Shown piece by piece: positions 1,003 to 64,000 of a stretch of DNA of 64,000 nt. The DNA is taken from assembly GCA_951812955.1 (NCBI GenBank), contig OX638340.1:3232001-3296000 (forward strand), given 5' to 3'. The DNA is from an uncultured Gemmatimonadota bacterium (GTDB lineage Bacteria > JAAXHH01). The stretch's first letter is position 1. Each line of letters opens with the position of its first letter. The notes under the pieces are model-generated. The model was not told the DNA's origin. It saw only the letters and a list, made by a program, of their open reading frames with translations, and ran no database searches. Position numbers and translations under genes: made by a program.

Positions 1003-1110
1003 GCTCGACGCCAGCCTGTATACGCCCGGACTCCTAATCTTTAATATGTAACATACATCTCCCTTGTGAAGTCGTAAGTAATAACCGTGATGACCGCATA
1101 CGCAATGTTC

Positions 1111-1138
1111 CACGGTAATCAACGCGCGGTAATCAACG
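1111..1138. repeat. 14-bp direct repeat x2 (c[ag]cggtaatcaacg) in promoter region of the following gene
   Basis: Two adjacent copies read directly, 35 bp upstream of the 1173 start codon. Confidence 0.5.
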
Positions 1139-1172
1139 AAAAAAATCGGTTTGCCTGCATGGGAGGTGTCGA

Positions 1173-7890: not shown

Positions 7891-7972
7891 TACGAAACCG
7901 GCGATAATTCGCTTGACAAATCCGCATATGTTCATATTCTATAAGTAATTATGCAGTGTGAACATCTTATCC

Positions 7973-8010
7973 GCGCCGACGCGAAATAACAACCGAAACC
8001 GCGTCGGCGC
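7973..8010. repeat. perfect 10-bp inverted repeat (gcgccgacgc/gcgtcggcgc) with 18-nt loop between the two receptor genes
   Basis: Read directly; no T-tract follows, so it is not a canonical intrinsic terminator. Confidence 0.5.
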
Positions 8011-43557: not shown

Positions 43558-44026
43558 AAAAGGACGTGTCCGCATGGTGGACGTGACGGAGAAACCGGTA
43601 ACGGAAAGGCGTGCGGTGGCCTACGGGGAAATAAGGGCCGCAACCGACACCATCCGGAAGATCTCCGCCGACGAAATGGGCAAGGGCGACGTGCTGACCA
43701 CCGCGAAGATCGCGGGCATCTCGGCGGCCAAGCGTACGGGCGACCTCATTCCCATGTGCCATCCCATCCCGCTGGACCACGTGGAGATCGACATTTCTCT
43801 GGACGAGGATGCGGCCAGGATCGGCATCCTTGCCACGGCGTTGTCATCGGGGAAGACCGGGGTGGAAATGGAAGCCCTGACGGCCGTCTCCGTGGCCGCC
43901 CTGACCATCTACGACATGTGCAAGGCCGTGGACCGGACCATGGAGATCGCTTCCATCCTGCTGGTGGAAAAGGAAGGCGGCCGTTCCGGAAGGTTTATTC
44001 GGCCGGGGTGGGAGGGGCCGGGGTAG
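43535..44026 (+). CDS. moaC: cyclic pyranopterin monophosphate synthase MoaC
   Basis: LSHLDEKGRVRMVDV...IPMCHPIPL...EMEALTAVSVAALTIYDM. Confidence 0.9.
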   Translation: MELSHLDEKGRVRMVDVTEKPVTERRAVAYGEIRAATDTIRKISADEMGKGDVLTTAKIAGISAAKRTGDLIPMCHPIPLDHVEIDISLDEDAARIGILATALSSGKTGVEMEALTAVSVAALTIYDMCKAVDRTMEIASILLVEKEGGRSGRFIRPGWEGPG

Positions 44027-44429
44027 TTTTCCTTATAGTGTTTTGAGACTGGCCCAGAACTATATTCGTAGCGCAGTAGTTGACTGTCTTGTTTACATAA
44101 TGAGCAAGGCACATACATGCCAATTTCGTCCTGATTGCAATAAGGATATATGATCTAAAATGTTTTCAGATAGCCCGTTCTAGGAGGTTTTCTAAACTAC
44201 CATTATCGAATTCTTAAAGATGGTTTCGCTTCCAACAGTTCGTGAGCGTATCGGATTCCAGACCTTCGACTCTTCCAACCCCCTTTAAAATCAGTCATGT
44301 ACTTCAGTTTCAAGAATTCCACTCTTTCGCCATACACATTTGGTTTTTCATAATCCCTCCAAAACATCCAACTTTCCAATTCCGACACGTCTTGATCCAG
44401 AAGATGATTTCTGGAAATATAGAGTTTGC

Positions 44430-44819
44430 CTACACCATCTTGTATCGAGCAGGTCCTTTCTTCCGAGCGGGAGGCAGTTTGGTTACAAAGCCCTGTTTGA
44501 CCAACCAGTTCATTGAAGCATGAACCAAGCTTCTTGACGATCTTTTGGGGTCGGCTTTTGTTTCCAACAGTCCGTTGGTTCGTAACATATGGAGTTCCTT
44601 GCAGAGATCGTCGGTATCCAATACCGAGCCGGGATGGGCAATAAACATCCGGCGGATACACTCTGTTGGGGTTTCTCTTTCAAAAAGTGTATTATCTGTT
44701 TCTGTGGACCGTGTGGCTTCATACTCCTTGTTCAATTCAAGGACGCCATTTAAACGATCTATCTCTTTCTCGAGCTCGGAAACTCTCTGTTTTACCCACG
44801 ATAAAAATGATTCATTCAC
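44430..44819 (-). CDS. hypothetical protein (N-terminal coiled coil), island-borne
   Basis: 129-aa ORF with AAAGGTGA RBS 6 nt upstream of the ATG and AT-rich codon usage; it overlaps another -strand ORF (44203..44661) in a different frame. Confidence 0.3.
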   Translation of the reverse strand: MNESFLSWVKQRVSELEKEIDRLNGVLELNKEYEATRSTETDNTLFERETPTECIRRMFIAHPGSVLDTDDLCKELHMLRTNGLLETKADPKRSSRSLVHASMNWLVKQGFVTKLPPARKKGPARYKMV

Positions 44820-44841
44820 CTTTCACCCCCGTGGAAAAGGA

Positions 44842-44870
44842 TTGACATAGATGACCAAACAAGATATCAT
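44842..44870 (+). promoter_or_regulatory. near-consensus sigma70 promoter TTGACA-N17-TATCAT
   Basis: Read directly; it points rightwards into the tRNA-like fragment and is divergent from the 44819 gene. Confidence 0.45.
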
Positions 44871-44893
44871 AATAGGCAGTTGGGAGTGAAACG

Positions 44894-44925
44894 AGGAAGC
44901 CCCGCCGGGAGTCGAACCCGGACCT
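44894..44925 (-). other. tRNA-derived 3' fragment (T-arm CCGGG-TTCGACT-CCCGG + acceptor 3' strand), no matching 5' half
   Basis: The plus strand shows ...gagtcgaacccgg..., the reverse complement of a canonical T-loop. The upstream sequence cannot pair as an acceptor or anticodon stem, so this looks like a partial att-site-like tRNA copy rather than a gene. Confidence 0.35.
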
Positions 44926-44996
44926 CACCCTTCGTGTGCAGTGGCTCTTTCCTTTAAGCTACGAGGCCCCTCGCTCTCAAACCTTCCAGCTACATC

Positions 44997-45039
44997 GGGT
45001 TGCCCTAGATCCTCCCAGATCAACGTACAGGGGCAACCC
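44997..45039. repeat. 9-bp perfect inverted repeat (gggttgccc...gggcaaccc) with 25-nt loop
   Basis: Read directly. Confidence 0.5.
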
Positions 45040-45672
45040 GACCTTCTAATATACATAACGACCATAAGATTGTCTGTCAACAGTTATTTCGTCGAGACAG
45101 TATAGAATTGCCTGTCCACACTGTTTACAGTAGACAACAGGCGTAATATCACAATAGCAAAGAAAAAGCGCAAGCAAAACAGTCAAGAGTGTTCACTGGG
45201 CAGAATCGGGGCAGAATCGTGAAAGATATCTGCCCGCACCGGCTACACCGGAACAGGTGGGAGTGTATCGTCCAAGAATAGGGCTTTGGAATAATGTCGT
45301 GAGACATGAGGACAAGAAAAATGGGTAAGTCGGTTAACCTACGAACGCTTGAGATTGATTACCTTAAGGCGGTAAATGACCGGGATCTAGCCGATCAGCG
45401 TGTAAGGGACCTAAAGCGTATCGCCCTACACCCCGTTCGTTGGCGAATTCATTCACAGCGAAATTGATGGCGTGGAATGGGAAACGAACTGGCAGCTACG
45501 GACACCCCGCTTGGCGGTAACTCGGAGGTCTATGCACTATGGTAGAAAAGTTGCCCGAGCAGTCTACAGAGGTGCTCACCAACTCTACCAACTAAGTAAA
45601 ACGGGCTTGGGCTGGACATGATTAGGAAGGCACATATCTCCTAAAGAACAGATCGATAGGCGATGTTTTTTC

Positions 45673-51498: not shown

Positions 51499-52716
51499 GT
51501 GATTAAGCGCCAGAAAGTGAACGCGTCCGGACGGCTTCCCATGTCGAACCACGTGATCGAAGCGGCGGCACAGCTCAGGTGGTGGCTGCGGCTTCCCCCG
51601 ACCAACCTCATCGACCGGGGCGACCACGTCCGTTTCCGGTACGCCCTCTACCTGATGATCCACCAGGTCGCCACCGTGCTCTACGGCATAAACGGGCTGC
51701 CCGAAAGTATGTACTATCCCTCGCGGCTCGAGGGTGCACGAAACCGCCTGGACGGGTTGACCCGGGCGCCGGAACACGCGGGCTCAATCCTCTGGACACT
51801 GGCGACCGAACGCGATCCGGAGAAAGCGTGGGCGGCCGCGGCAGGACTGATGCGGGATACCCTGGCATTGCTGGAAGAATCAGCGGATGGGCGTGGTTCA
51901 ATGGGTTGGGAAGTCGAGGAAGGATCATTCAAGCCGGATCAGTCTCGGAATCCCGATGATCTATACGCACTGGCCGCCGAAATCGCTGAGCGGCTTCGCC
52001 TCCTCGAGAAAGCAAGCGCCGTGGCTCTGGGCGGATCCCTGGGGAGGGGTTACGCAGACCGCCAGTCGGATATCGATCTGCTCTTTTTCGGGCCGAGCAT
52101 TCCCCGTGAGGTCGATCGCCGCCGGCTGATCTCGGCCTGGCCGGACATTCAACATGGACCCCTGGTCGAACCGGCCTGCGACAGCGTGGTGCTCGATGGG
52201 GCGATGGTCCATATACGCTACTGGACCAGGCAGACCGTGGAAGACATGCTGGCGGCAATTCCCAGGCCACCGGTACAGCGGATCCTTGCAGAAGAGTTAC
52301 AGAAATGCCACGTCTTGATCGATCCGGACGGAAGGCTTCTCGCGTGGAAAGGCGTTTTGCATCACATTCCATCGGAATTGGTCACGGTTATTTACGAAGA
52401 AGCGCGGGGAAGGCTGCCCGCTTTTCGTAAGCAGTGGCAGAAGGCGCAGGAGTCCGATGACCGGATCCATCTCTACTGCCTGGCCAACCAGGCCGTGAAC
52501 GATTTCCTGATTGCGCTGTATATCCGGAATGGGCGGTTTCTGAGCACGCCCAGATGGATTCACCTTGATACGCACGCGTTCGATGTCGGTCTGCCGGAAC
52601 TGGAATGCAGATTGGCTTCGTTTGTGGACGGGATAGACGACCGGAAAGATACTGCGGCGAGATGGCGCGCGCTTGAGGTTTTGTGGGGGAAGTTGGCGAG
52701 TTTGCCGCCTTCATAG
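51499..52716 (+). CDS. nucleotidyltransferase-domain protein (Pol-beta-like NTase fold + helical C-domain)
   Basis: ALGGSLGRGYADRQSDIDLLFF is the minimal NTase GS…DxD motif. High-GC, host-like composition; this is the last host-composition gene before the AT-rich island. Confidence 0.5.
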   Translation: MIKRQKVNASGRLPMSNHVIEAAAQLRWWLRLPPTNLIDRGDHVRFRYALYLMIHQVATVLYGINGLPESMYYPSRLEGARNRLDGLTRAPEHAGSILWTLATERDPEKAWAAAAGLMRDTLALLEESADGRGSMGWEVEEGSFKPDQSRNPDDLYALAAEIAERLRLLEKASAVALGGSLGRGYADRQSDIDLLFFGPSIPREVDRRRLISAWPDIQHGPLVEPACDSVVLDGAMVHIRYWTRQTVEDMLAAIPRPPVQRILAEELQKCHVLIDPDGRLLAWKGVLHHIPSELVTVIYEEARGRLPAFRKQWQKAQESDDRIHLYCLANQAVNDFLIALYIRNGRFLSTPRWIHLDTHAFDVGLPELECRLASFVDGIDDRKDTAARWRALEVLWGKLASLPPS

Positions 52717-53471
52717 GCCTTATGGTCGTCCGTGGTTGAGATTCGAAATGCTCTGCGCACATCTCGGAAATTACATCGTCTACGCGAAGGCTGAGATACG
52801 GCTATCTAAGGCGAGTCTGCTTCTGGAACAAAATAGACTTCGAGATTCAGGTTGAGAAATCGACTAATACCAGTAAGCAAGTTCCATGTAGGTATCCGTT
52901 TGACGTGTTCGGCTCTTGCGTTTGATCCACGCGTATTGTGCATTGCTACAATCATCGATCATCGGATTGCCTCTTATCGGGGCTGGATCGAATCCACGAC
53001 ATCGATCGAAGGAGTGGATTTCATGGGATGGCTCTATGAAGCCAAAAAGAGACGGCACAGGGTAGAAGGACGTGCTGAGGGCCGGAGAGAGTGACCAGGC
53101 CTACAGGGAGTGGATCAACAGGGAACAAGAGGCTGGTATGCTTGGCACACCGAAGCAAAGTCCTCCGCCGTTTCTTGATGATAGAATCTGCGATCAGGCC
53201 AACGGCTCGGATCATTGACACGGCTGGTTTTTCGATAGTCTCGGAAATCCGGGTATTGGCCTTTGGGGGACAGGATGGTTTGGCCAGTCGGATCCCCAGG
53301 ATTATTAGTAACGAATTCGGCAATGAGTCGTTTCTACGTCTGGCTCTGAACTTGCCCTATCCGGCTCAGATGTGACTACCACGTATACTGTCCTCCCCTC
53401 ATGCGAAATCGCTCGACATCGACCCGAACCTCTTCCAGAGCCTTCGCGATTCCAACCTAAAGGATGGGGCG

Positions 53472-53627
53472 CTATAAGTATGATTTCCGTTCTATTTTGT
53501 CCAGATAGGTTTCGGTCAGCATCGACCCGTTGGTGACGATCGAGGTGGTCATCCCATATCCTTTCACCATTTCAATCAGATCCGCCAACTAGGGACAGAG
53601 CGTTTGTTCGCCACCTGCGAAACTCAT
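53472..53627 (-). pseudogene. radical-SAM enzyme fragment (MoaA/QueE-like GGE-motif region) with in-frame stop
   Basis: Minus-strand translation [45 protein letters not shown] resembles the radical-SAM FxGGEPLL…TNG region. There is no CxxxCxxC upstream, and stops flank the fragment. Confidence 0.35.
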
Positions 53628-53941
53628 TTCTTCGGTCCTTGCGTTCTGCAACGTTGCCATTAGTGGCGGCATTGTTGGCTATAGAATGGACATCTACGTA
53701 GTACGGGGTTACGGCAGTCGAGGGCACGGCTCCGTTCTTCGGTCGGAAGCAAACGAGGAACCATCTAGTCGCTATTAAGGCTGAGGTGGCATTTTCAATG
53801 GCGAGCCGACACGCGGACTGGATGAAACAGGGTCGGCGAGATTATGAATACTACATCCGTGCGGAAGCGAAATGCGCACTGGCGAACGCCGCGCAGGTCA
53901 TCGACTTCTGTGAAGGTATTCTGGCTGGACCGCTCTCGACT

Positions 53942-54257
53942 GATGGAGCGTCTCAATCGAGCGGTCCGAACGCTGGGTGACCGCCACCCCGAAATCGAAT
54001 CGATCTATCTGTCCGGCTCGTTGGCGCGGGGAGACGCTGTACCCGGCAGCGACAGCGACGCGGACCTGCTGATCTTGGTGAGTCATGCCACCGAGCCGTT
54101 TCGGGATCGACCGGTCTGTTACCACACGACGGGTATGGGCGTGGACGTCGACGTGGTGGTTTACACGCGAGAGGAACTGGACGCGCTGCTGGAGACGGAC
54201 AACGAATTCGCACGGCGGGCATTGCGTGAGGGTGTCCGGTTGTTTCCGGTTCGCTGA
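53942..54257 (+). CDS. minimal nucleotidyltransferase (MNT/antitoxin-like NTase)
   Basis: MERLNRAVRTL...IYLSGSLARGDAVPGSDSDADLLILV is the classic MNT GSxxRG…DxD motif. ATG at 53942. Confidence 0.55.
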
Positions 54258-54425
54258 AGCGACCGGATACCGTGGTCTTTCTGGCCATGGTGGCAGTAAA
54301 CGGTTCGATCTTTCGGAGTTTGGGCGTTACGCGCTTTCAATCGAGATGGCCTTCGATTACGTTATAGTCGACAAGCTGTCAGGCGTCCCCAAAGGGATAA
54401 TCGCCCTGGATCTTGGAGGCGTTCG

Positions 54426-54829
54426 ATGATTAAGAATGAAAGGCAGTATTTGATTACGAAGGCTCAGGCTGCACGGTTCGTCCGCACTCTTGAAAGCCTG
54501 GATGGCGATGACGGTGTACATGATGTCATTCATAAAGCGCAACGGGATGCCGTACGAAGCCAGATCTCGGATATGAAAGCAGAGATTTCTGAGTACGAAT
54601 CGTTGAAGGCAGGGAACTCAAACCAGATCAACTTAAAACAGTCAACGAATTACCGGTGCTGCTAATCAAAGCGAGGATCGCTCAAGGCTTAAGCCAGAAA
54701 GATCTGACCGATCGGCACGGCTTAAAGGAACAACAAATACAGCGATATGAAGCCACGGACTATGTCTCCGCCGACTACCGCGACTCAGGGAGGTCGTCGG
54801 GGCCTTGGGAATCGAAGGAAAAACAATGA
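54426..54829 (+). pseudogene. HigA-like antitoxin (N-terminal domain + XRE helix-turn-helix) disrupted by a frameshift near 54620
   Basis: Frame A gives MIKNERQYLITKAQAARFVRTLESL…AEISEYESLK and stops at 54665. Frame +2 continues with PDQLKTVNELPVLLIKARIAQGLSQKDLTDRHGLKEQQIQRYEA (an XRE HTH) to the TGA at 54829. Confidence 0.5.
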
Positions 54830-54982
54830 ATTAGAATGAAACAGTCTCCGCATCTTAGTGGCCACATCAATCAATTTAACATGTTTCAACCGGTATACAT
54901 TCACACAAATATGCAAGCCATGTATCCAATGAAACAGTAGAGCCGTGGCTACCACAGCGAGCAGCAACTAGATTTGTTTAGG

Positions 54983-57900
54983 TTAGGCCATTAGATGCTC
55001 CAAAAGATTGTGGCTAACAGACCTGACTGTTCCCGTAGAAAGATCTAAAGCAACCTCCGCCATACCCACACCTTCGGATTGGGCGTTTATCTCTGAGCGC
55101 ATCCAAGCTCTTAGCCGTTCCGGCTGTTCATAGGTATCCAAAAGAAAGGAAGGGTAATTCAATTTTTCGAAGCTTGTGGGTTGGGTTTCTAGTCGGTTGA
55201 AAGCAAGCTCACGTACTTTCTTGTCACGTGTGAAACGGGCAGCTACGGCGCGCAAGCACGAAGGCAAAAACTCCCAGATATCACCACGGAGGTTCGACAT
55301 TCTCGTCTCAACTCCGATTACGAATTCATTCGGAGATGCGATTGCGGCTAACAATTGTATCTGAGCCGGAAGCAGGAGTTTAGGTTTTTCAGCTTGAACA
55401 CGGGTTCTCAGTTCTTTCCATGCTTGCGAGTCTGGCCAGCCTGCACTAAGGGCGATAACAAGCGCATTCGAATTGTCATCTAGAGTTACACAAGACTTTA
55501 GAACTTCGTAAGTTTTGGTATCGTTGGAAAATTGTTCAGCGAGAATTTCTGCAGCTACTATGCCAGGAGCAGTTTCGATCCAACTGCCTACATGGTGATA
55601 TTGAACTAAGGGGAGGCAAAGCTCGCGTAGTTGTTTCGTATTTCGCAATTGACTAGAATAAAGTTGTAGCATTGGTGCAGTCGTCATACTCTGACTAGCT
55701 TGTTCAACAATCTCGTCTGCTTTATCAGAATCTGTGGCGTGGGCAGCCATTTCCGTTAGGAATTCATCCGACATCCATCCTATTTGTTCCCAAATACTAT
55801 CACCGAACGCCTGAGTTATCCTATTCCAATGGCTGACCAAGTGTTCGGCTAATCGTAGGTTAGTGCTATGGACTACGCCAAAGCCTCGGTCATTTGTCTC
55901 ACATTCTGACCACACAGTTTTTACGATGTCAAGTCGGTCAAGCTCAAGAAGTACGGAGAAGGCCGCTTGGCGCCGGTCCCCGTAATCCGGTCCTATAACA
56001 AGCAACCCCTTTGTCAGTTTTTCAAGAAGTTCAGATGAGAGTTCATCTCGTTGAATGACTGATGCTGCGAAGCCGATTGCAGCTGCCGTTTTAACATTTA
56101 CATCTATATCTTCATCATAATCTGACAGAAGTTTATATGCGAAATCATCGTCTGGACCTAAGCGTGCAAGTCGATCGACGACAGTCAAACGGAGTTGTAC
56201 GGGGAGTGGACTACTTAGTTTGAGCAGTTCACAACGTATCTCATCACAATTTAGGTAGGCATTTGCAACGGTATTCAAGTCCCCTGCACGATTCCGTAAC
56301 TGATGAAAAGACAAGTCACGTACCTTGGGATGATTAGGAAAGTGTTTAATCAAGTCACTTACGCCCCAGTATGGTACGCCTGATGGTACCTCCCCCGAGT
56401 ATTTCTCTATAGCTGCTGGCACTACTTCCTCGTCATGCTCCTTTACTCCAAGATTGACCAATCCTATCAAAGCACCTCGGGCTGTTGAACCCGATTCATT
56501 GTTAAGAATCTCTAGTAAACGCCGCCGACATAGTACTTTATCGAGAAGAATCTCTGGCAGAAGATGTGCGGCCTTTATCGCAACATCACTATCAGCAAGA
56601 TTTAACAAAGCAGTAGCAACTTCTTTATCCTCCATACCCCATCCTAGTAACAACCACCGAGCTTGGTCCTTTGATATAACACCAGTATCCTCGTCCGGTT
56701 TAAGCAAAATACCCTTTGCCTGTTCTGATCGAGAGATGAGGCAAAGTTCGAAATCCCAAAATAACCTTCCGTTTTCTTTTTTAATTTTCCGCTCTAGCCA
56801 GTCGTCAACGGCTAGTCCTAATATCTGATGACCAGCGAATGCCTCAACGAGCGGTCCCCAGTTACCGCCAAGGCCAATTAAATGGCTAGGATAGTCTTCA
56901 GTCCGAAACAAACCTGCAATGGCCTCAGCAACCTCATCATCTTGCGGAAAACCTTCCAGCAGAATGATTCCGACGGCTCCAGAATCAACTATTACTTTAT
57001 CACCATTTCGTTCGATACTCCGTATCGCACTGTTTTTGACTCCAATGTCACCTGGCCAACCCTTGAGAAGAGCCCGAATTCGGTCGTCTTTCCAGCACCA
57101 TGATGCAAAGTGAAAATCTCGTGCAAGTTCTACTAATGTCTCGTAGTCATCCACATCCTGTTCTTTGCGTTTCACTCGATGAATTAGTGCGACACTTTGT
57201 AATGCAACATCGGCAGATGACCGCGCGTGCTTCAAGATTTCAGGAAGCCGATGATTAGTTTCCCAACCAAGGCAAAGCGCATGCAAGGAGCAGGCAAGCA
57301 GTCGCGGTTCAGAAGGAATCAATAGTAAGTCAAACAGCCATTCTGCAACAGAAGGATCACCTCCGTAAGCTCTTGCGAGTGATTCTGCTGCTATTCGTTG
57401 ATTCCAAGCTTCTTCATCAATAAAGCCACGCATTAATATCGCTTGGCCCTCGCTAGAAATACCCCATTTCGAGGCGGACTCATACATTCCGTGACGATAT
57501 TGATGTCGCAAGGGAAACCAGCGTTGAATACGGGACTCTACATGTGATCGCAGTATCTCGGATTCAAGTCCATCAAGTGCAAACTCAATAAGTCGTTCTC
57601 GAGTACCCGTGCGAACTCCGGTTTCTACAATCTCAAACGTCTCTTCCGCCAGTTTTCTGGCGACACTTGGCGAACAATGGAGATCACCAAAGGCTACTTC
57701 GGCAAGAAAGCTTTGCCGAGATAACTCCATTTCAGCCGCTAGTGGCATACTTTCGATAATCGCGACGAATTCATCCACCTCACCATACCGCGAGTTAAGA
57801 TGGCACAGGCACAAAAACACATCGTGCCACTGAGGATTCTTAAATCGTTTCTTCAATGCTTCCTTTTGCTGTTCAAATGGGAGATTAGATAGGTGTTTTG

Positions 57901-59872
57901 CAGCGAGGAATTCTTGTAAAGAGCGATGTAGAAAGCCGATCTCTATTGGTGATTTCTCGATGAGAACCCCAACTGCCTCGGTACCAATAGTGAGTAATTC
58001 TTCTGCTATACTATGTGCACCTTCCGGTTTTTTATGTAGGTGAGTTGAACAAAATCCCTGAAGCACATCCTTAGCAATGACTCTATCTAGAGCATCGCTC
58101 CCCGCTGAATCGTGGGTTTCCCAAGCCAACCTAGCCAATGCCCGTTCACGTGTTTCCTGTTGCAAATGTGAGTTGGTCCCGCGTGCGTGAACTGACTTTT
58201 CACGTCGCTTGGGCTGTTCGTCTAGCAGCAGACGTGCTAGTTCCTCGTATGCTTTGAATCTGCTGCGGGGAAGGCTCACTTTCTGAATGGCAAGAGCAAT
58301 TAGGCCATTAAGTAGTAAAGGCACCTTTGCCAGGCGGGATATCCGTAAATCACGGTGAAGGTCTTGTATGAATTGGGTGGCTTCGGATTTCGCCCTTTTG
58401 TGTCGCATGGCGATAGAGTCGCTATCTTCGCCAGGTACAGCAAGTGTGTAGGACCGATGCATGAACCATCGTTCAGCCAAGATTCCTTGTTGTTCATCTG
58501 TCAACCCAGAAAGCTGGGCTACACGCCACCTACTGCTTAGTCCACCGATCCGCGTATAACCTAGAGGACGACTGCTGACGATTGCTGGTACATTCCGTTC
58601 TCCCACGAATTGTTCGAGCAAACCAAGCGCCGTCCGAGCATCCGTGCCGTTACTCCACTCATCAAGGCCATCTACAAATAGCATTAATCTCGAATCTTCC
58701 AAAGCCTGCTGAACCAATGTAATTAGAGCTGTCTCAGCGGAAACTTTTTGAAGCCAAGCAGTGAGAACATTTGCTAACGAACACCCTGTTTCAGATTCGC
58801 TGACAAGTCGCGTCCACATGGCAAACGGAACCCAAACAGGTAAATATTGTCCCCAACGAAGAGCACTTGCCTCATAGCGCGGATCGGTACTAAGTAGATC
58901 AAGTAATACACAACGAAGCAAGGTACTCTTGCCGATACCTGGGTCTCCAAGTACAACCGACTGATCGGAGTCTGCAAGCCAGTCAATCGCTGAGCGGCGA
59001 ACTAGCGAGGGTCGAGGCAAAACTTGCGGTCTGCGGGATTGAGTAGAGTCTTCGTTTCCATCGGTGCGGAGTCGTCCTTTATTTTGATCTTCTATCGATT
59101 GATTAGTTGTTTCAATGTGGGCAGCTTGTTGTTCTTCCAGAATATCGGGAGGCACAAATCGATCGGCTAAACTGAGGGGCTGAAAGTCAGGTTTTATGGA
59201 ACCTGTTACGGACGGGATACCGGGATCGGAAATCTCGAAATGGTGAGTATAGCAACGCCGAAGAAGCTGTCGCAGTTGTACGACCTGACCAGGTTTTAAT
59301 CGGCGACTCGACAGTTTGGCAGCAGCTTCTTCGCCACAGAATTCCTGCACCCACTCGCGTCCAAAGAAGTCGTCTACTAAATCTGGATGGTTTTTTAGAT
59401 GTTCAGAAATCTGCGTGACACCAAGTGGTAGGAATTGGATGTTGCGTTCACGGAGGCGATCGCCTTGTGATTCTAATTCTATTGCAAGCTTTTTTTCTTC
59501 GGTCTTCACCGAAACTGCTAGTACAAACTTATCGGTTTTAGGTGCCCATGAGCCTTTTAAAAAACCAGTAACCGCAATGTCGATGAGATCCGAGCTGAAT
59601 TCCTTGTATCTTTTGCACTGCCAAACAGTATATCTGGATGATTCCAATGTGCGTACGTAGATATCTATACCTTCTTGATCCTGACCTGGAATCCCATACT
59701 CTTGACATCTTTCCACTTTTCCACCGCGCTGTGCGAGGCGAGCACAAAGTCTTTGAAAGAAGTTCCACGGTAAGAGGTTTAGTGGGAGTTCCTGTAATCT
59801 AGTTCTAATGGGATGAGAGACAAATGATTCAGATGGTACCCACACACTTGTGTTTTTTTTTGATTCTTCCAT
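54983..59872 (-). CDS. NACHT-domain STAND NTPase (bacterial NLR-like) with N-terminal Mrr-like PD-(D/E)xK restriction-endonuclease domain and long C-terminal alpha-helical repeat region
   Basis: ATG at 59872 with AAGGAT RBS (track TTG at 59875). The N-terminal domain matches the Mrr_cat pattern (FFQRLCARLAQ…GQDQEGIDIYV…TVWQCKRY…LIDIAV). Walker A VVLGDPGIGKSTLL, Walker B LMLFVDGLDEW and the NACHT-specific AIVSSRP motif are present. ~1,100 aa of helical repeats follow. AT-rich composition. Confidence 0.8.
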   Translation of the reverse strand: MEESKKNTSVWVPSESFVSHPIRTRLQELPLNLLPWNFFQRLCARLAQRGGKVERCQEYGIPGQDQEGIDIYVRTLESSRYTVWQCKRYKEFSSDLIDIAVTGFLKGSWAPKTDKFVLAVSVKTEEKKLAIELESQGDRLRERNIQFLPLGVTQISEHLKNHPDLVDDFFGREWVQEFCGEEAAAKLSSRRLKPGQVVQLRQLLRRCYTHHFEISDPGIPSVTGSIKPDFQPLSLADRFVPPDILEEQQAAHIETTNQSIEDQNKGRLRTDGNEDSTQSRRPQVLPRPSLVRRSAIDWLADSDQSVVLGDPGIGKSTLLRCVLLDLLSTDPRYEASALRWGQYLPVWVPFAMWTRLVSESETGCSLANVLTAWLQKVSAETALITLVQQALEDSRLMLFVDGLDEWSNGTDARTALGLLEQFVGERNVPAIVSSRPLGYTRIGGLSSRWRVAQLSGLTDEQQGILAERWFMHRSYTLAVPGEDSDSIAMRHKRAKSEATQFIQDLHRDLRISRLAKVPLLLNGLIALAIQKVSLPRSRFKAYEELARLLLDEQPKRREKSVHARGTNSHLQQETRERALARLAWETHDSAGSDALDRVIAKDVLQGFCSTHLHKKPEGAHSIAEELLTIGTEAVGVLIEKSPIEIGFLHRSLQEFLAAKHLSNLPFEQQKEALKKRFKNPQWHDVFLCLCHLNSRYGEVDEFVAIIESMPLAAEMELSRQSFLAEVAFGDLHCSPSVARKLAEETFEIVETGVRTGTRERLIEFALDGLESEILRSHVESRIQRWFPLRHQYRHGMYESASKWGISSEGQAILMRGFIDEEAWNQRIAAESLARAYGGDPSVAEWLFDLLLIPSEPRLLACSLHALCLGWETNHRLPEILKHARSSADVALQSVALIHRVKRKEQDVDDYETLVELARDFHFASWCWKDDRIRALLKGWPGDIGVKNSAIRSIERNGDKVIVDSGAVGIILLEGFPQDDEVAEAIAGLFRTEDYPSHLIGLGGNWGPLVEAFAGHQILGLAVDDWLERKIKKENGRLFWDFELCLISRSEQAKGILLKPDEDTGVISKDQARWLLLGWGMEDKEVATALLNLADSDVAIKAAHLLPEILLDKVLCRRRLLEILNNESGSTARGALIGLVNLGVKEHDEEVVPAAIEKYSGEVPSGVPYWGVSDLIKHFPNHPKVRDLSFHQLRNRAGDLNTVANAYLNCDEIRCELLKLSSPLPVQLRLTVVDRLARLGPDDDFAYKLLSDYDEDIDVNVKTAAAIGFAASVIQRDELSSELLEKLTKGLLVIGPDYGDRRQAAFSVLLELDRLDIVKTVWSECETNDRGFGVVHSTNLRLAEHLVSHWNRITQAFGDSIWEQIGWMSDEFLTEMAAHATDSDKADEIVEQASQSMTTAPMLQLYSSQLRNTKQLRELCLPLVQYHHVGSWIETAPGIVAAEILAEQFSNDTKTYEVLKSCVTLDDNSNALVIALSAGWPDSQAWKELRTRVQAEKPKLLLPAQIQLLAAIASPNEFVIGVETRMSNLRGDIWEFLPSCLRAVAARFTRDKKVRELAFNRLETQPTSFEKLNYPSFLLDTYEQPERLRAWMRSEINAQSEGVGMAEVALDLSTGTVRSVSHNLLEHLMA

Positions 59873-60376
59873 CAATGTAAATCCTTAAACCGATCGTCGA
59901 TGATGTTACCTCGATTTCGTGGACGATTTACCATTTGGGATTCAGGCTGTTTGCTTGAAGCTCCTTTCGTAGGTTGATGGTGAGAGATATCCGGGGGAAG
60001 AGTGCTTTCTCCAAGTATTGTAGAAGTCCTCGATGTATTCGAACAGTGCGAGTCTAGCCTCGGTCCCTGATTCGCTAGACCGACCGTATGTTGCAAGTGG
60101 AGAAACCTGAGAAAGTTATAGGTAGGGTTGCAAATACTATAATAAACATAGGCAATCACTACGTGGATTCGCCATCTGCACACAACCAAGGCACGCGTTC
60201 GAACGGGTTTTGGTTTCCAGTGATTAAACGATTCTTATATCGTCCTCGATATTCGAATTTCCGCAACAATATCAATTCGATATACCACTGACTTAGGCGT
60301 AAAGAATCCAATAGTGCATCCATCGAAATGTGACCATGCCTACGTTCAGGGTGAACGATATCATTACGAATCTTTG

Positions 60377-61444
60377 TTATCGCGGTCGGACCGTCCGTCC
60401 ATCCCTTCTTTTAGCAATCGCTTCCAAGTGTTTGCAGTGTGACGGAATTTTTGCTTCGATTTCTAATTCTTCGAGTGTCTTTTTTAACGATTTACCGAAA
60501 GAATACACCGTTTCCTGATTGATAATGTAGGACAGAGATTCTAGGGCAGCCTGAGTAAGAACGATTCCCACGTGAATGGCGCTGCCAGCACTATTCACAT
60601 ACCAATCTATAGCCCGACGAATGGCATCTTTCCATTCTTCCTTGGTATACAATTCCCAGAACCCACGAAAAGATCCGGAAAGACTGCCTCCCCCGTCATG
60701 TTTCGCGAGCCACGTGTGCCTGCTTTCTTGCCAGTGAGTTACGTACTTCGTTCCCCATAGTATGGACTGCTCCCCTCCACTTACATCAATTCCTTTTACA
60801 GATGTAAGACCACACGCCGTGCCACGAGCGAATGAGAAAAAGGTCCCTAATCCGTCTATTAAGGGTAATACGTCACCCACGGTAAACACTTTGTTGTTCA
60901 GAGAGTAAATTGCTCCAGTGTGGGTTATGGCATATCCTCCACTTTGTTTTAGGATCTTCTGATTCTCAAAAAAATTGCGATTTTCTTTAATCTCAATCCG
61001 CCAATGATCGACTTCTAGGATTGCGAACCCAAGTCGTCGATATACTCCATCTATTTCTATGTGTTTATCTTGTGCACCATAAAACGTTATGAAATTGAGT
61101 ATACCGAATCGCACAGATTTAAGTCGGACATCGGACCGAGCTACTGTACAAGGACTCTGAACAGGGCCTAAGGAACCTTTGAATCCAATTACTGAATCCT
61201 TATTGAGACTACATGACTTCAGCTTTACTCGAATCCTTCCGCCGCTCTTCAAGGAAATAAAAAAAGGTTCATACATAAATCTCTGTCGCATAAACAATGG
61301 ATATTCATCGGAATCGATAGAAAACTGTAATCTGGGCGACAGTCGAAGAACCGCGCGAACCTTACAAGGCGTGGATAGACATTGGTCTTGTATGTGAGTG
61401 ATACTTGTATCGTCAAGAACAACTGGTTCATTCGGTTTGCACAT
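60377..61444 (-). CDS. hypothetical 355-aa protein, co-directional between the methyltransferase and NACHT genes (possible nuclease/effector)
   Basis: ATG at 61444, 44 bp downstream of the MTase stop. AT-rich; no recognisable family. A weak D…E-x-K-like pattern (IEIDGVY…LEVDHWRIEIKE) is present. Confidence 0.45.
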   Translation of the reverse strand: MCKPNEPVVLDDTSITHIQDQCLSTPCKVRAVLRLSPRLQFSIDSDEYPLFMRQRFMYEPFFISLKSGGRIRVKLKSCSLNKDSVIGFKGSLGPVQSPCTVARSDVRLKSVRFGILNFITFYGAQDKHIEIDGVYRRLGFAILEVDHWRIEIKENRNFFENQKILKQSGGYAITHTGAIYSLNNKVFTVGDVLPLIDGLGTFFSFARGTACGLTSVKGIDVSGGEQSILWGTKYVTHWQESRHTWLAKHDGGGSLSGSFRGFWELYTKEEWKDAIRRAIDWYVNSAGSAIHVGIVLTQAALESLSYIINQETVYSFGKSLKKTLEELEIEAKIPSHCKHLEAIAKRRDGRTVRPR

Positions 61445-61487
61445 AACCTACCGATTATCCTTCAATCACCGTGAAAAGATTCTTAAA

Positions 61488-63977
61488 CTACTCCATCGCC
61501 ATAATGATTCTCGCAATCCGCCTAGCGGTTTCCGTAAAGTACTTAATCTCTTGGGGATTGAGCGCACGCCCGATCACATTGAACTCGCGGTAGGATAGCC
61601 ATTTCTTAAGTACCTGATAGCCGCCAAGCTTGTAGTTCCAGATTTTGGTGGGTACGTTATGCCAGAAGGCGCGGTCGTTCAAATACACGTCCACAGTAGT
61701 TGCACCTAGTGCGGAAATCGCCGTACCTAGGACGGCGCGTTCGTCAGCCGTGTATTTGCGTTCGACGATGCGGCCTTTGCCCGGCATTACCGTGTCGCCC
61801 CGTCCGTAGTGACCCCACCTCGCAGTCACTGCGAAATCATCATCGGTCATATTGCTACCGTGGCTAGTTGTAGGCACGGCAAGCGAAGCGATCTCAGGTG
61901 GTATCGCACCCTGAGTAACGCCCGGTACCGGGGTGTCGGGATCAAATAGACAGGCTAGTTCACGACCCCGGTCGGCCGATTCAGCGAATAACTCAGCGGC
62001 ATTTTTGGTATCCCCATTGGGCCAGCCCGGTAGTGGTATACGCGGCCAGTCCATTGCAAGCGCCCCGGCATTAGCTTCACGATATGTCGGATTGTGGAGG
62101 ATGGTAAGGATGTTGTGGAATAAGTCCTCAGGACTCGCTCGTATACGATGGAGATAGCGTTTGCCAGCCTCAGATAAGTTTGGTAGGTAATGTAATACGT
62201 TGTCACCAGCCCCAAGGACGTCGTTGTTAAGATAGATGGGGAACCATATCGCAGTACGTTCGATTAAATGCATAGCACCAAAGTGTCGGGTAACAATGGT
62301 CTGTGCCTCCGTTACGTCCTTACGAAGATGCTGAGCTGCACACAGCCACAGGTTTTCCTCGAACACCTGTCGCTTGTAGTCGGCACGCTTGTCGTTAAGG
62401 AGTTTAGTCTCTGCTTCCCAGTAAAGCCATCGGATATCGAAGGGGCGGTACGCGAAGCGAATGAACCCGCCTTCGTTCGGTCCGCCGCGTGCGAGTAGTG
62501 TTTCGCGCACAGAGTGAGCGTCAAAATGCCTCGCGGTTTTCATGATAATAGGATATCGCTGGGCAATCTCGTTGTGGCTCAAATTCACGTCGAAATAATC
62601 GGAGACGCGGGCCATTAGTCGATCAAGGTCGATATCGACAAGAAACGAGTCCCGGTTGGTCTTTGCTCCAGGAAATGAGATCGGATAAATATCGGGTAAC
62701 GTAGGCCAGTTGAACCAGCCCTCACTCACCGCCGTACGCACGAACGGCAGGCCAAGCGGCAAAGATGGCTCGATGCGGTCATAAAGTACGTTTGGTTCCG
62801 CATGCGCCGTCGCCATCAGTTCCTTGCGCTTTGTACGTCCCCACAGATGGCGAAATCCGATCTCCACTGCGGGGGTATGATTGTACTTACGTACCAGAGT
62901 TGCAATGGCCGTACCCACCTGAATGCCAACCGGATTGTCCGGCGTCGAAAAGATACTTGGGTCTGGCGAGCCATCGGGAGCGACCTTTCCGGTCTTATAT
63001 TTGTCGCCATTTAAGCAGTCGATCCGAATCGAGTCGAAAACCTTGAGGAAGCGCTCCCTCATACCAGCGAACGACAGCCCGTCGAGCCAGGAATAATTGG
63101 AAATGAAACAGATTACCCCCTGACCGGTTCGCCCAGCAATCCGTCTTTCAGCCATACGGAAGAATCGGATGTATAGATCGATCAGTCCCTTGCTTTTTTC
63201 CATCCGTACTTTGCTTGTCTTACGATAGGCTTCGAAGAGTTCGCGTTCTTCATCAATCGTTACACCGGCAAAGGCATTATAGGGTGGATTACCCAAGATC
63301 ACCAAAACCGGAGTCTCCTGCTTCACTCTCTCGGCCCGGTCACGCTCTTCCTCCAATTCAGGGAACGGCAGCACATTCTTAGTTCGCGGCTCCCATCCAG
63401 TCAGAGCGTTTGTTAGGAAGACTTGGGCTCGTTCCATCCCGTCATCGGAAAACGTCGCATCAAGTGCCTGCATGGTCAACCCGATCTGAAGATGCGATAC
63501 GACAAAAGGCGCGGGCATGATCTCGAAGCCAAACACCCGTTCTAATGCCGCCTGCTTTACCTGCGAACCGACAAGCGCACCGACTCCTTTGTTTTCAAGA
63601 TTGGAAGCAATATTGCGTAACACTTCTGCCAGATAGGTTCCGGTACCGCAGCATGGGTCGAGCACATATACGTTTTCCGCAGCTAGTCCATCTGGAATCC
63701 CCAGATCGTCTTTGAGCGCTTTGTCCACTCGTGTAACCATATAGCGCACTACTTCGATTGGTGTGTACCATACGCCTAGTTGCTTACGCAACCCAGGGTC
63801 GAATGCCTGTAGAAAGGGCTCGTAGAAATAGGTTACCGCTTCGCCTTCATTGAATCGGGTGAAGAAGGTAGTGCGGTCCACACGGTTAAGAGCAGCGGAT
63901 GTCCAATCCAACACTTCCACTAGGCCTAGAGGCTCAAGGCGAGCAGGCTGTGAGAGTTGCTGGAACAGAGATTGCAT
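61488..63977 (-). CDS. gamma-class N6-adenine DNA methyltransferase, PglX/MmeI/Eco57I-like (no N-terminal nuclease domain)
   Basis: YFYEPFLQAFDPGLRKQLGVWYTP (motif X), VLDPCCGTGTYL (motif I, FxGxG) and ILGNPPYN (motif IV, NPPY) in gamma order, with a ~550-aa C-terminal target-recognition region. The start is 23 bp from the window end, so any upstream partner genes are not visible. Confidence 0.8.
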   Translation of the reverse strand: MQSLFQQLSQPARLEPLGLVEVLDWTSAALNRVDRTTFFTRFNEGEAVTYFYEPFLQAFDPGLRKQLGVWYTPIEVVRYMVTRVDKALKDDLGIPDGLAAENVYVLDPCCGTGTYLAEVLRNIASNLENKGVGALVGSQVKQAALERVFGFEIMPAPFVVSHLQIGLTMQALDATFSDDGMERAQVFLTNALTGWEPRTKNVLPFPELEEERDRAERVKQETPVLVILGNPPYNAFAGVTIDEERELFEAYRKTSKVRMEKSKGLIDLYIRFFRMAERRIAGRTGQGVICFISNYSWLDGLSFAGMRERFLKVFDSIRIDCLNGDKYKTGKVAPDGSPDPSIFSTPDNPVGIQVGTAIATLVRKYNHTPAVEIGFRHLWGRTKRKELMATAHAEPNVLYDRIEPSLPLGLPFVRTAVSEGWFNWPTLPDIYPISFPGAKTNRDSFLVDIDLDRLMARVSDYFDVNLSHNEIAQRYPIIMKTARHFDAHSVRETLLARGGPNEGGFIRFAYRPFDIRWLYWEAETKLLNDKRADYKRQVFEENLWLCAAQHLRKDVTEAQTIVTRHFGAMHLIERTAIWFPIYLNNDVLGAGDNVLHYLPNLSEAGKRYLHRIRASPEDLFHNILTILHNPTYREANAGALAMDWPRIPLPGWPNGDTKNAAELFAESADRGRELACLFDPDTPVPGVTQGAIPPEIASLAVPTTSHGSNMTDDDFAVTARWGHYGRGDTVMPGKGRIVERKYTADERAVLGTAISALGATTVDVYLNDRAFWHNVPTKIWNYKLGGYQVLKKWLSYREFNVIGRALNPQEIKYFTETARRIARIIMAME

Positions 63978-64000
63978 GATAGGAGCACGTAAATGCCACA

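What the first reader, a model, noticed from the sequence alone, without database searches (positions are those of the whole stretch)
52717..64000. AT-rich defence island begins exactly after the arg cluster and carries decaying TA-like genes
GC content drops abruptly after the NTase-domain gene at 51499..52716 and stays low to the end of the window. The first 2.3 kb of the island hold only gene remnants. These are a radical-SAM fragment with an internal stop (53472..53627), an intact MNT-type nucleotidyltransferase (53942..54257) and a frameshifted HigA-like HTH antitoxin (54426..54829). This pattern is typical of a hotspot that has been invaded and overwritten repeatedly. No integrase, tRNA or flanking direct repeat is visible at this boundary, so the insertion mechanism is unclear.
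Basis: seen in the sequence. Interest (0 to 1): 0.5.

Follow-up and report, generated by a model that had tools for sequence, protein, structure and literature searches.

The report
Decaying defence island in chromosomal hotspot
A low-GC block of anti-phage genes, several of them broken, fills a variable slot between two conserved genes of a Gemmatimonadota chromosome; this is a real but ordinary defence-island hotspot whose most useful by-product is a recurring pairing of a type IIG restriction enzyme with an ApeA/YopA-like RNase gene.

Summary
GC falls from 0.62 to 0.49 (GC3 from about 0.8 to 0.4) at the stop codon of the conserved NTase gene (52716) and stays low to the window end.

Near-identical relatives (arg proteins 96-100% identical) have only about 1 kb of toxin-antitoxin genes at this site, followed by a GFO_IDH_MocA gene. 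So this is a strain-variable hotspot.

Contents, from the left edge:
- unassigned DNA
- an internally deleted HEPN gene with an intact MNT gene
- a 5'-truncated DUF6932 gene with an XRE "HigA-like" gene carrying two 1-nt deletions
- an intact 1630-aa Mrr-NACHT STAND gene
- an IS3 transposase relic
- an ApeA/YopA-like HEPN gene inactivated by a 1-nt deletion
- a type IIG restriction-modification gene that runs off the window

One qualification. The NACHT-ApeA-IIG core also sits at this same slot in other Gemmatimonadota (80% nt identity in one contig, about 60% aa in a more distant genome). It is therefore a long-lived, exchanged hotspot allele, not a fresh insertion. No integrase or att site is present, so exchange through flanking homology is the likeliest route.

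This is a new member of a known kind and of modest interest. The type IIG plus ApeA-like pairing, seen in 6 of 6 contexts across two enzyme families, is the lead worth following.

The parts
51499..52716 (+). Left flank: conserved NTP_transf_2/DUF4037 gene (NT405). It is a lineage core gene that follows argR-C-B-D-H-GNAT in all relatives. The start used by public gene calls is probably 51541.
   Evidence: Pfam. More than 100 homologues at 62-85% identity in Gemmatimonadota MAGs. Synteny. Only 83-85% aa identical to L082/L083, against 96-100% for the arg proteins.
52717..53375 (.). Unassigned low-GC DNA at the island edge. No recognisable gene, and no similarity to L082, L083 or L116.
   Evidence: Six-frame read. 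No Pfam or PADLOC hits for its ORFs. blastn.
53376..53672 (-). Prokaryotic viperin (pVip) pseudogene. An N-terminal piece (53589-53672 plus 53472-53588) is joined to the C-terminal tail (53376-53471). It has three in-frame stops, lacks the middle of the protein, and has no CxxxCxxC motif.
   Evidence: PADLOC pVip-kinase E=4.9e-18 and pVip E=3.5e-17, two stretches. Pfam Radical_SAM E=3e-5. Coordinates.
53798..53935 (+). HEPN (PF05168-type) relic with an internal deletion of about 85 codons. Only the first 15 and last 30 or so residues remain.
   Evidence: The L116 counterpart, with one stop masked and one frameshift repaired by hand, gives Pfam HEPN E=1.1e-25. The window version aligns to its two ends.
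53943..54257 (+). Intact MNT-type nucleotidyltransferase. It is an orphan antitoxin-type gene, GC 0.62. The ORF could also start at 53844.
   Evidence: Pfam NTP_transf_2 E=1.4e-9 and Polbeta E=2.4e-7. 81% nt identity to the MNT of L116.
54370..54429 (+). 3' relic (last 19 codons or so) of a DUF6932 gene. Its stop overlaps the start of the HTH gene (ATGA).
   Evidence: The intact 146-aa orthologue in L082 gives Pfam DUF6932 E=3e-36. Alignment.
54426..54829 (+). XRE-family HTH ('HigA-like') pseudogene with two 1-nt deletions, at about 54615 and 54772.
   Evidence: Alignment to the intact 132-aa gene of L082. tblastn splits into two frames.
54983..59875 (-). Intact 1630-aa STAND NTPase: an N-terminal Mrr-like PD-(D/E)xK nuclease, a NACHT domain (Walker A at 58922-58948, Walker B at 58655-58681), and a long helical C-terminal region (HEAT repeats in homologues).
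   Evidence: Pfam NACHT E=4.6e-10 and weak Mrr_cat E=0.005. 462 homologues, the listed top hits mostly full length, several carrying PF04471 or PF13646. Motifs.
59942..60097 (-). C-terminal relic of an IS3-family (rve) transposase, lying between the ApeA-like and NACHT genes.
   Evidence: Pfam rve_2 E=1e-6. A degenerate copy sits at the same place in L116.
60159..61444 (-). ApeA/YopA-like HEPN gene, inactivated by one uncompensated 1-nt deletion at about 60409 (AAACAG to AAAAG). The 355-aa product stops before the invariant R-N-x3-H motif, which is encoded out of frame at 60351-60368.
61488..64000 (-). Type IIG restriction-modification enzyme (N6_Mtase plus Type_ISP_C). Methylase motifs I (63639-63659) and IV NPPY (63276-63293) are intact. 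The N-terminal 240 residues or so lie beyond the window.
   Evidence: PADLOC REase_MTase_IIG E=1e-82, matching profile positions 267 onward. Pfam. No stop up to the window edge. The full-length orthologue in L116 is 1068 aa.

Best explanation
The region is the cargo of a chromosomal defence hotspot in a Gemmatimonadota genome. The slot lies between the conserved NTase gene that follows the arg cluster and, beyond the window, a GFO_IDH_MocA gene.

The slot holds layered modules acquired at different times:
- old small toxin-antitoxin-type modules (DUF6932+XRE, HEPN+MNT)
- a viperin gene
- a low-GC core made of a single-gene Mrr-NACHT sensor, an ApeA/YopA-like HEPN RNase, and a type IIG restriction-modification enzyme.

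Shown: the composition shift, the gene identities, the inactivating lesions, absence of the island in near-identical relatives, and its presence at the same slot in other relatives.

Inferred:
1. Cargo is exchanged between strains by homologous recombination through the conserved flanks, with occasional IS activity, and not by an integrase.
2. The self-toxic effectors (viperin, both HEPN RNases, DUF6932) were lost by mutation, while the autonomous NACHT and restriction-modification genes stayed under selection.
3. The island ends about 1.5 kb past the window, at roughly 65.5 kb.
For: Composition.

Relatives without the island. L082 is 98.8% nt identical over 40.8-44.0 kb and 94.8% over 45.65-52.69 kb, yet has a 1.06-kb slot holding DUF6932+XRE. 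L083-L086 have a 0.93-kb slot holding ParE+DUF6290. In both, GFO_IDH_MocA, Ldh_2 and GroES/EL follow.

Relatives with the island. L116 aligns to window 63998-54947 at 79.7% nt over 9.1 kb, and its end carries a GFO C-terminus 83% identical to that of L082. L117/L118 have core proteins 86-93% identical to the window and carry NT405 | NACHT (59%) - ApeA relic - type IIG (60%) - DUF6290 - lipoprotein | GFO. Their island GC is 0.43-0.48 in a host of 0.65.

Horizontal exchange. The window's NACHT is closer to a Poribacteria homologue (67%), which sits in a different islet, than to the same-slot copy in L117 (59%). NT405 next to the slot is 88-91% nt identical to L082, against 96-100% further away.

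Lesions.

No tRNA, integrase or repeats at the edge. An IS3 relic is present.

The core arg ORFs have the same lengths as in relatives (GNAT differs only in the called start), so the frameshifts are not a general assembly artefact.
Against: The right boundary is not in the window, and the source contig could not be fetched. The island's length and right flank are therefore inferred from L116 and L117.

Persistence of NACHT plus type IIG at one slot across genomes that differ by about 10% in core proteins also fits vertical inheritance with fast evolution and repeated deletion. The data do not separate this cleanly from recombinational exchange.

Single-base lesions in one assembly could be sequencing errors, and no reads were available.

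No experiment shows that any gene here defends against phage.
Confidence: 0.8

Rival explanations
1. The island is ancestral to this Gemmatimonadota lineage and inherited vertically. Its low GC and high divergence reflect fast evolution of defence genes. Relatives without it (L082, L083) simply deleted it.
For: The same gene order, orientation and slot occur in the window, L116 and L117/L118. The shared IS3 relic and the ApeA remnants are best read as common descent of the block.
Against: GC3 of about 0.4 in a host of about 0.8 shows no amelioration despite divergence of around 40% at the protein level. The window's NACHT is closer to a Poribacteria copy (67%) than to L117's same-slot copy (59%). 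The flank gene NT405 is about five times more diverged than its neighbours in the closest relatives.
Confidence: 0.15
2. The region is a remnant of an integrative mobile element (prophage, ICE or transposon) whose integrase and att sites lie beyond the window or have decayed.
For: An IS3-family transposase relic lies inside the island. The composition is foreign. The right end is unseen.
Against: No integrase, tRNA, phage or conjugation gene occurs in 11.3 kb. L117/L118 show both borders of the equivalent island, with only defence and TA genes between NT405 and GFO and no integrase. The IS3 relic is internal and is shared with L116, so it does not mark the border.
Confidence: 0.04
3. The apparent pseudogenes are assembly or sequencing errors and the modules are functional.
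For: The ApeA-like gene and the XRE gene are each broken only by single-base deletions.
Against: The viperin, HEPN and DUF6932 genes have large deletions and multiple stops that base-calling errors cannot explain. L116 and L117 show independent decay of the same modules. All core ORFs in the window are intact and full length.
Confidence: 0.05

Closest known systems
Defence islands and chromosomal integration hotspots between conserved core genes
   Same: Anti-phage genes cluster in a compositionally foreign block at a fixed slot between conserved genes. Cargo differs between close strains, with TA modules and IS debris intermixed.
   Different: No integrase, satellite or prophage backbone is present. 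The same NACHT plus type IIG core persists at the slot across fairly divergent genomes. The host is an uncultured Gemmatimonadota lineage.
ApeA (HEPN anticodon nuclease; Gao 2020; bioRxiv 10.64898/2026.01.26.701840) and SPbeta YopA
   Same: A beta-rich N-terminal region with ApeA_NTD1 hits, a C-terminal HEPN fold, and an invariant R-N-x3-H motif. It is 28% identical to SPbeta YopA.
   Different: It is a divergent branch: the PADLOC library gave no hit, only 4 of 12 members reach ApeA_NTD1, and there are no Foldseek PDB matches. The close subfamily is always paired with a type IIG enzyme, whereas ApeA is described as a single-gene system. The window copy is frameshifted.
PrrC-EcoprrI (HEPN anticodon nuclease embedded in a restriction-modification locus) and the R-M-linked HEPN clades of Anantharaman et al. 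2013 (PMC3710099)
   Same: A HEPN RNase gene is tightly linked to a restriction-modification system. That paper already lists ApeA as 'embedded in R-M operons' in epsilonproteobacteria.
   Different: The partner here is a single-chain type IIG enzyme, of either the Type_ISP_C or the MmeI family, not type Ic HsdMSR. There is no ABC-ATPase domain. No interaction or masking has been shown.
Bacterial NACHT / Avs-type STAND anti-phage sensors (bNACHT; Nature 2026, PMC13581612)
   Same: A single large protein with nuclease effector, NACHT NTPase and a repeat sensor. It is found in defence contexts and moves as a single gene.
   Different: The PADLOC v2 library gave no hit. Its trigger and clade assignment are unknown. 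The Mrr effector is only weakly detected in this copy (E=0.005).
Prokaryotic viperins (pVip) and HEPN-MNT type VII TA modules
   Same: Sequence matches to pVip profiles. The HEPN (PF05168) plus MNT gene pair is also present in L116.
   Different: Both are wrecks here. The viperin lacks its Fe-S motif and middle part, and the HEPN lacks about 85 codons. Only the MNT is intact.

Membership tests
Genomic/defence island at a variable hotspot | Composition distinct from the host genome | tested here: met
   GC 0.49 against 0.62 and GC3 about 0.4 against about 0.8; p = 3e-7.
Genomic/defence island at a variable hotspot | Presence/absence polymorphism among close relatives, with conserved flanks | tested here: met
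   L082 and L083-L086 (arg proteins 96-100% identical) lack it. NT405 and GFO flank the slot in L082, L083 and L117.
Genomic/defence island at a variable hotspot | Both borders defined in this genome | not testable with these tools
   The window ends inside the type IIG gene, and exact look-ups of the source contig failed. The right border is inferred from L116 and L117.
Genomic/defence island at a variable hotspot | Enrichment of known defence genes | tested here: met
   pVip remnant, type IIG RM, NACHT STAND, ApeA-like HEPN and HEPN/MNT.
Integrase-mediated island (prophage/ICE/tRNA-linked) | Integrase or recombinase, plus att direct repeats or a tRNA at the border | tested here: not met
   No tRNA near the border. 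No repeats. No recombinase domain apart from an internal IS3 relic.
Prokaryotic viperin (pVip) | Sequence match to pVip profiles | tested here: met
   PADLOC E = 5e-18 to 9e-15 over two stretches.
Prokaryotic viperin (pVip) | Intact radical-SAM CxxxCxxC motif and an uninterrupted ORF | tested here: not met
   Three in-frame stops, the middle of the protein missing, and no Cys motif in any frame. It is a pseudogene.
HigBA toxin-antitoxin | XRE-HTH antitoxin paired with a HigB/RelE-fold toxin | tested here: not met
   The HTH_3 domain is present, but the upstream partner in the intact orthologous module is DUF6932, not HigB. Both genes are inactivated here.
ApeA / YopA HEPN family | ApeA N-terminal domain plus a C-terminal HEPN with the Rx4-6H motif | tested here: met
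ApeA / YopA HEPN family | Intact catalytic domain in this window's copy | tested here: not met
   A 1-nt deletion at about 60409 puts the RNDIVH motif out of frame.
ApeA / YopA HEPN family | tRNA anticodon cleavage, oligomeric ring and small-molecule activation | not testable with these tools
   Biochemical properties known from bioRxiv 10.64898/2026.01.26.701840.
Type IIG restriction-modification enzyme | Single chain with methyltransferase motifs and a target-recognition domain | tested here: met
   PADLOC REase_MTase_IIG E = 1e-82. N6_Mtase and Type_ISP_C hits. Motifs I and NPPY present.
Type IIG restriction-modification enzyme | N-terminal endonuclease domain present | not testable with these tools
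   It lies beyond 64000. The orthologue in L116 has the full 1068 aa matching the profile from position 67.
NACHT-clade anti-phage STAND (bNACHT/Avs-like) | NACHT NTPase with Walker A and B motifs | tested here: met
   Pfam NACHT E = 4.6e-10. GDPGIGKST and LFVDGLDEW motifs.
NACHT-clade anti-phage STAND (bNACHT/Avs-like) | N-terminal effector domain | tested here: inconclusive
   Mrr_cat E = 0.005, below Pfam's cutoff. Several full-length homologues carry PF04471 or PF13156. A D...QxK-like motif lies at 59606-59626.
NACHT-clade anti-phage STAND (bNACHT/Avs-like) | Assignment to a named, tested Avs/bNACHT clade; anti-phage activity | not tested
   The PADLOC v2 library gave no hit. No phylogeny was made.

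The most novel reading that the evidence does not exclude
The ApeA/YopA-like HEPN RNase and single-chain type IIG restriction enzymes may form a previously undescribed two-gene defence unit. The HEPN gene sits directly downstream of the enzyme in all six close contexts examined. The enzyme partner has been swapped between two unrelated type IIG families (Type_ISP_C-type and MmeI-type). Canonical ApeA is switched on by 5'-phosphorylated deoxydinucleotides. The RNase might therefore act as a second line that reads out DNA breakdown started by restriction, or failure of restriction in the manner of PrrC. The window would then show such a unit caught after loss of its suicidal half.
Probability: 0.25. 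Interest if true: 0.6.

Novelty: new member of a known kind. Interest (0 to 1): 0.35.

Why it matters
The finding gives a cleanly delimited, integrase-free defence hotspot in an uncultured Gemmatimonadota lineage. Empty, TA-only and island-bearing alleles are all available for comparison. This helps in studying how defence cargo turns over by flank recombination, and how self-toxic effectors decay first.

The transferable lead is the strict adjacency of an ApeA/YopA-like HEPN RNase to type IIG restriction enzymes of two families. This extends the restriction-linked HEPN idea (PrrC; Anantharaman 2013). Given the recent finding that ApeA senses deoxydinucleotides, it suggests a testable coupling between restriction and abortive infection.

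For genome annotation, the 355-aa and 105-aa ORFs and the 'radical SAM' ORF in this region should be labelled pseudogenes or relics.

Tried and rejected
1. Fetching the source contig to see the right border. Exact-product look-ups for four window proteins found nothing.
2. A genome-contig scan with ArgH. Close relatives were found instead through NT405 homologues.
3. Assigning 52717-53375, the ORFs at 52852-53094, 53021-53323 and 53091-53375, and the 64-aa ORF at 53786-53980 by Pfam or PADLOC. No hits. The last was resolved only by comparison with L116.
4. Searching for att-like direct or inverted repeats in 52-64 kb. Only one 16-nt chance pair turned up.
5. The 105-aa ORF at 59872-60189 was rejected as spurious. 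It overlaps the IS3 relic in another frame.
7. A prophage or plasmid origin for the ApeA-like gene. Only distant (24-32%) homologues occur on plasmids and in SPbeta.
8. Distant ApeA-like homologues (33% identity or less) do not keep the type IIG neighbour. Contexts include type III RM and SIR2 in one case each, and none in others. The pairing claim is therefore limited to the close subfamily.


Full report
**1. Observation**

GC is 0.60-0.65 over most of the window. It falls to 0.44-0.55 from about 52.3 kb to the end.
- Fifty host 1-kb windows average 0.618 (sd 0.024).
- Eleven island windows average 0.486. Mann-Whitney p = 3e-7.
- Third-position GC is 0.78-0.87 in argR/C/B/D/H and the GNAT gene, and 0.70 in the 405-aa NTase gene (NT405).
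- It is 0.39-0.40 in the NACHT and ApeA-like genes and 0.56 in the type IIG gene.

The one exception inside the island is the MNT gene (GC 0.62).

The arg cluster is real: ArgR, ArgC, ArgB, ArgD, ArgH and an ArgA-like GNAT. NT405 follows it (NTP_transf_2, weak DUF4037). No tRNA lies near the border, and no flanking repeat is present.

**2. What the first 2.3 kb contain**

A six-frame read and profile searches give the following.

- **Viperin wreck.** The minus-strand "radical-SAM fragment" is a prokaryotic viperin. PADLOC gives pVip-kinase E = 4.9e-18 and pVip E = 3.5e-17, in two stretches that correspond to an N-terminal piece and the extreme C-terminus. It has three in-frame stops, the middle of the protein is missing, and no CxxxCxxC motif survives (53376-53672).
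- **HEPN relic.** The 64-aa ORF just upstream of the MNT is an internally deleted HEPN gene. Its more complete counterpart in locus L116, with one stop masked and one frameshift repaired by hand, scores Pfam HEPN E = 1.1e-25. The window keeps only the two ends.
- **MNT.** The MNT ORF is intact.
- **DUF6932 relic and XRE pseudogene.** The next 60 bp are the 3' tail of a DUF6932 gene, and its stop overlaps the start of the "HigA-like" gene. The intact two-gene module (DUF6932, E = 3e-36, plus a 132-aa XRE protein) lies directly after NT405 in relative L082. Compared with it, the window's XRE gene has two uncompensated 1-nt deletions, at about 54615 and 54772.
- **Unassigned DNA.** Positions 52717-53375 could not be assigned to anything.

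**3. The rest of the island**

All remaining genes are on the minus strand.

- **Mrr-NACHT protein.** The ORF at 54983-59875 encodes an intact 1630-aa protein with a NACHT domain (E = 4.6e-10), Walker A and B motifs, and a weak N-terminal Mrr_cat match. The C-terminal half has no Pfam hit here. Among its listed top homologues most are full length (about 1600-1720 aa), and several carry Mrr_cat and HEAT_2. They occur in Gemmatimonadota, Poribacteria, cyanobacteria and ANME-1. In a Poribacteria contig the gene stands alone next to GmrSD and VapBC, so it behaves as a single-gene module.
- **IS3 relic.** Between this gene and the next lies the C-terminal relic of an IS3-family transposase (rve_2 E = 1e-6; 59942-60097). 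The 105-aa ORF listed there is spurious.
- **ApeA/YopA-like gene.** The 355-aa ORF at 60377-61444 belongs to a family of 422-439-aa proteins annotated YopA_M/YopA_C, some with ApeA_NTD1.
  - The window copy is cut short by a single-base deletion at about 60409 (AAACAG to AAAAG).
  - The remaining 83 codons, including the family's invariant R-N-x3-H motif, continue in another frame to 60159.
  - An AlphaFold model of the 63%-identical P0002 is confident (pLDDT 91.4).
  - SPbeta YopA is a 28% homologue.
- **Type IIG enzyme.** The ORF at 61488 up to the window edge is a type IIG restriction-modification enzyme with intact methylase motifs. About 240 N-terminal residues lie off the window.

**4. 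Comparison with relatives**

NT405 has more than 100 homologues at 62-85% identity in Gemmatimonadota assemblies.

*Relatives without the island.* L082 and L083-L086 share the window's order: UbiA, DUF420, ECF, MoaC, [slot 1], argRCBDH, GNAT, NT405, [slot 2], GFO_IDH_MocA, Ldh_2, GroES/EL.
- They are very close to the window. Proteins are 96-100% identical.
- Nucleotide identity is 98.8% upstream of slot 1 and 94.8% across the arg genes.
- Slot 2 is only 1.06 kb in L082 (DUF6932+XRE) and 0.93 kb in L083 (ParE+DUF6290).
- Similarity to the window ends at the NT405 stop codon.

The island is therefore a strain-level presence/absence polymorphism at a hotspot whose cargo differs between genomes.

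*Relatives with the island.*
- The 12.1-kb contig L116 aligns to window 63998-54947 at 79.7% nt over 9.1 kb, covering type IIG, an intact ApeA-like gene, the IS3 relic and NACHT. It then carries MNT, a HEPN pseudogene and a truncated XRE/DUF6932 piece. Its other end encodes a GFO_IDH_MocA C-terminus 83% identical to that of L082.
- L117/L118 are two NCBI Gemmatimonadota MAGs with core proteins 86-93% identical to the window and NT405 75% identical. They carry NT405 | NACHT (59%) - a 66-aa ApeA relic - type IIG (60%) - DUF6290 - lipoprotein | GFO. Island GC is 0.43-0.48 in a host of 0.65.

The NACHT plus type IIG core is therefore an old occupant of this slot in the lineage.

By analogy with L116, the window's island should end about 1.5 kb beyond 64000. 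This is an inference.

**5. How it most likely works**

*Turnover.* There is no integrase, tRNA or att site. L117 shows both borders with only defence and TA genes between them. Three observations favour exchange of slot alleles by homologous recombination through the conserved flanks:
- NT405, the flank gene, is disproportionately diverged between near-identical strains. Identity is 88-91% nt, against 96-100% further away, and the drop begins at about 51.6 kb.
- The window's NACHT is closer to a Poribacteria copy (67%) than to the same-slot copy in L117 (59%).
- The island's GC shows no amelioration.

Vertical descent with repeated deletion is the main rival. I give it about 0.15.

*Function.* The intact genes are a restriction-modification enzyme and a STAND sensor-nuclease. 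Both are established kinds of anti-phage systems (PADLOC; PMC13581612). The broken genes are all self-toxic effectors or their partners: viperin, two HEPN RNases, DUF6932 and the XRE gene. The MNT antitoxin-type gene survives. I read this as mutational loss of costly suicidal modules. That reading is an inference.

The lesions are unlikely to be assembly artefacts. Several are large deletions, the core ORFs are intact, and L116 and L117 show independent decay. The three single-base deletions still need read support.

**6. By-product: a type IIG plus ApeA-like pairing**

In all six contexts of the close ApeA/YopA-like subfamily (44% identity or more), the gene sits directly downstream of a single-chain type IIG enzyme.
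- The enzyme is Type_ISP_C-type in the window, L081 and L116.
- It is MmeI-type in L087, L113 and L114.

More distant homologues lie next to type III RM, SIR2 or unrelated genes. An E. coli plasmid homologue lies next to type I RM genes.

Anantharaman et al. 2013 (PMC3710099) already listed ApeA as embedded in R-M operons in epsilonproteobacteria and proposed a PrrC-like second-line role. A 2026 preprint shows that ApeA cleaves tRNA anticodon loops and is activated by 5'-phosphorylated deoxydinucleotides. A coupling between restriction and this RNase is therefore plausible, but it is untested. In this window the RNase half is dead.

**7. Verdict**

This is a new member of a known kind, a defence island at a recombinational hotspot, and its interest is modest.

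Noticed in passing
window 44016-45652: A second variable slot lies between moaC and argR. It is 1.64 kb of GC 0.45 with no similarity to the close relatives, which carry a PIN/antitoxin pair there (L082, L083) or a GmrSD_C gene (L117). The ORFs at 44203-44661(-) and 44430-44819(-) have no Pfam hit.
   Followed up: partly
window 44895-44968 (-): A tRNA-like gene lies inside that low-GC slot. ARAGORN reports a 4-base 'cacg' anticodon, implying an oversized anticodon loop. Rfam tRNA scores 37.7 bits. It may be mobile-element cargo, a pseudo-tRNA or an att remnant.
   Followed up: no
window 51499-52716: The conserved NTase/DUF4037 gene next to the hotspot is only 83-85% aa identical to relatives whose arg proteins are 96-100% identical. 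Nucleotide identity steps down from 96-99% to 88-91% at about 51600. This could be a recombination tract or diversifying selection. Its function is unknown.
   Followed up: partly
L081 10001-11320; L113 8001-9269; L114 8001-9296; L087 7944-9272; L116 4247-5533: The ApeA/YopA-like HEPN gene is always immediately downstream of a type IIG enzyme, which is either Type_ISP_C-type or MmeI-type. In L081 a duplicated Type_ISP_C fragment follows it.
   Followed up: partly
L117 16501-16695 and L116 10934-12036: The same modules have decayed independently in relatives. L117 keeps only a 66-aa N-terminal ApeA relic. L116 has a HEPN gene with a stop and a frameshift, and an XRE gene truncated after about 66 codons.
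   Followed up: partly
L119 10001-17462: In a Poribacteria contig the 67%-identical NACHT gene sits with GmrSD and a MazE/PIN pair, inserted inside a MoxR-DUF58-BatA operon. This is another small defence islet and is evidence of cross-phylum transfer.
   Followed up: no
window 1001-2000 and 7001-8000: Milder GC dips (0.54 and 0.57) occur elsewhere in the window.
   Followed up: no
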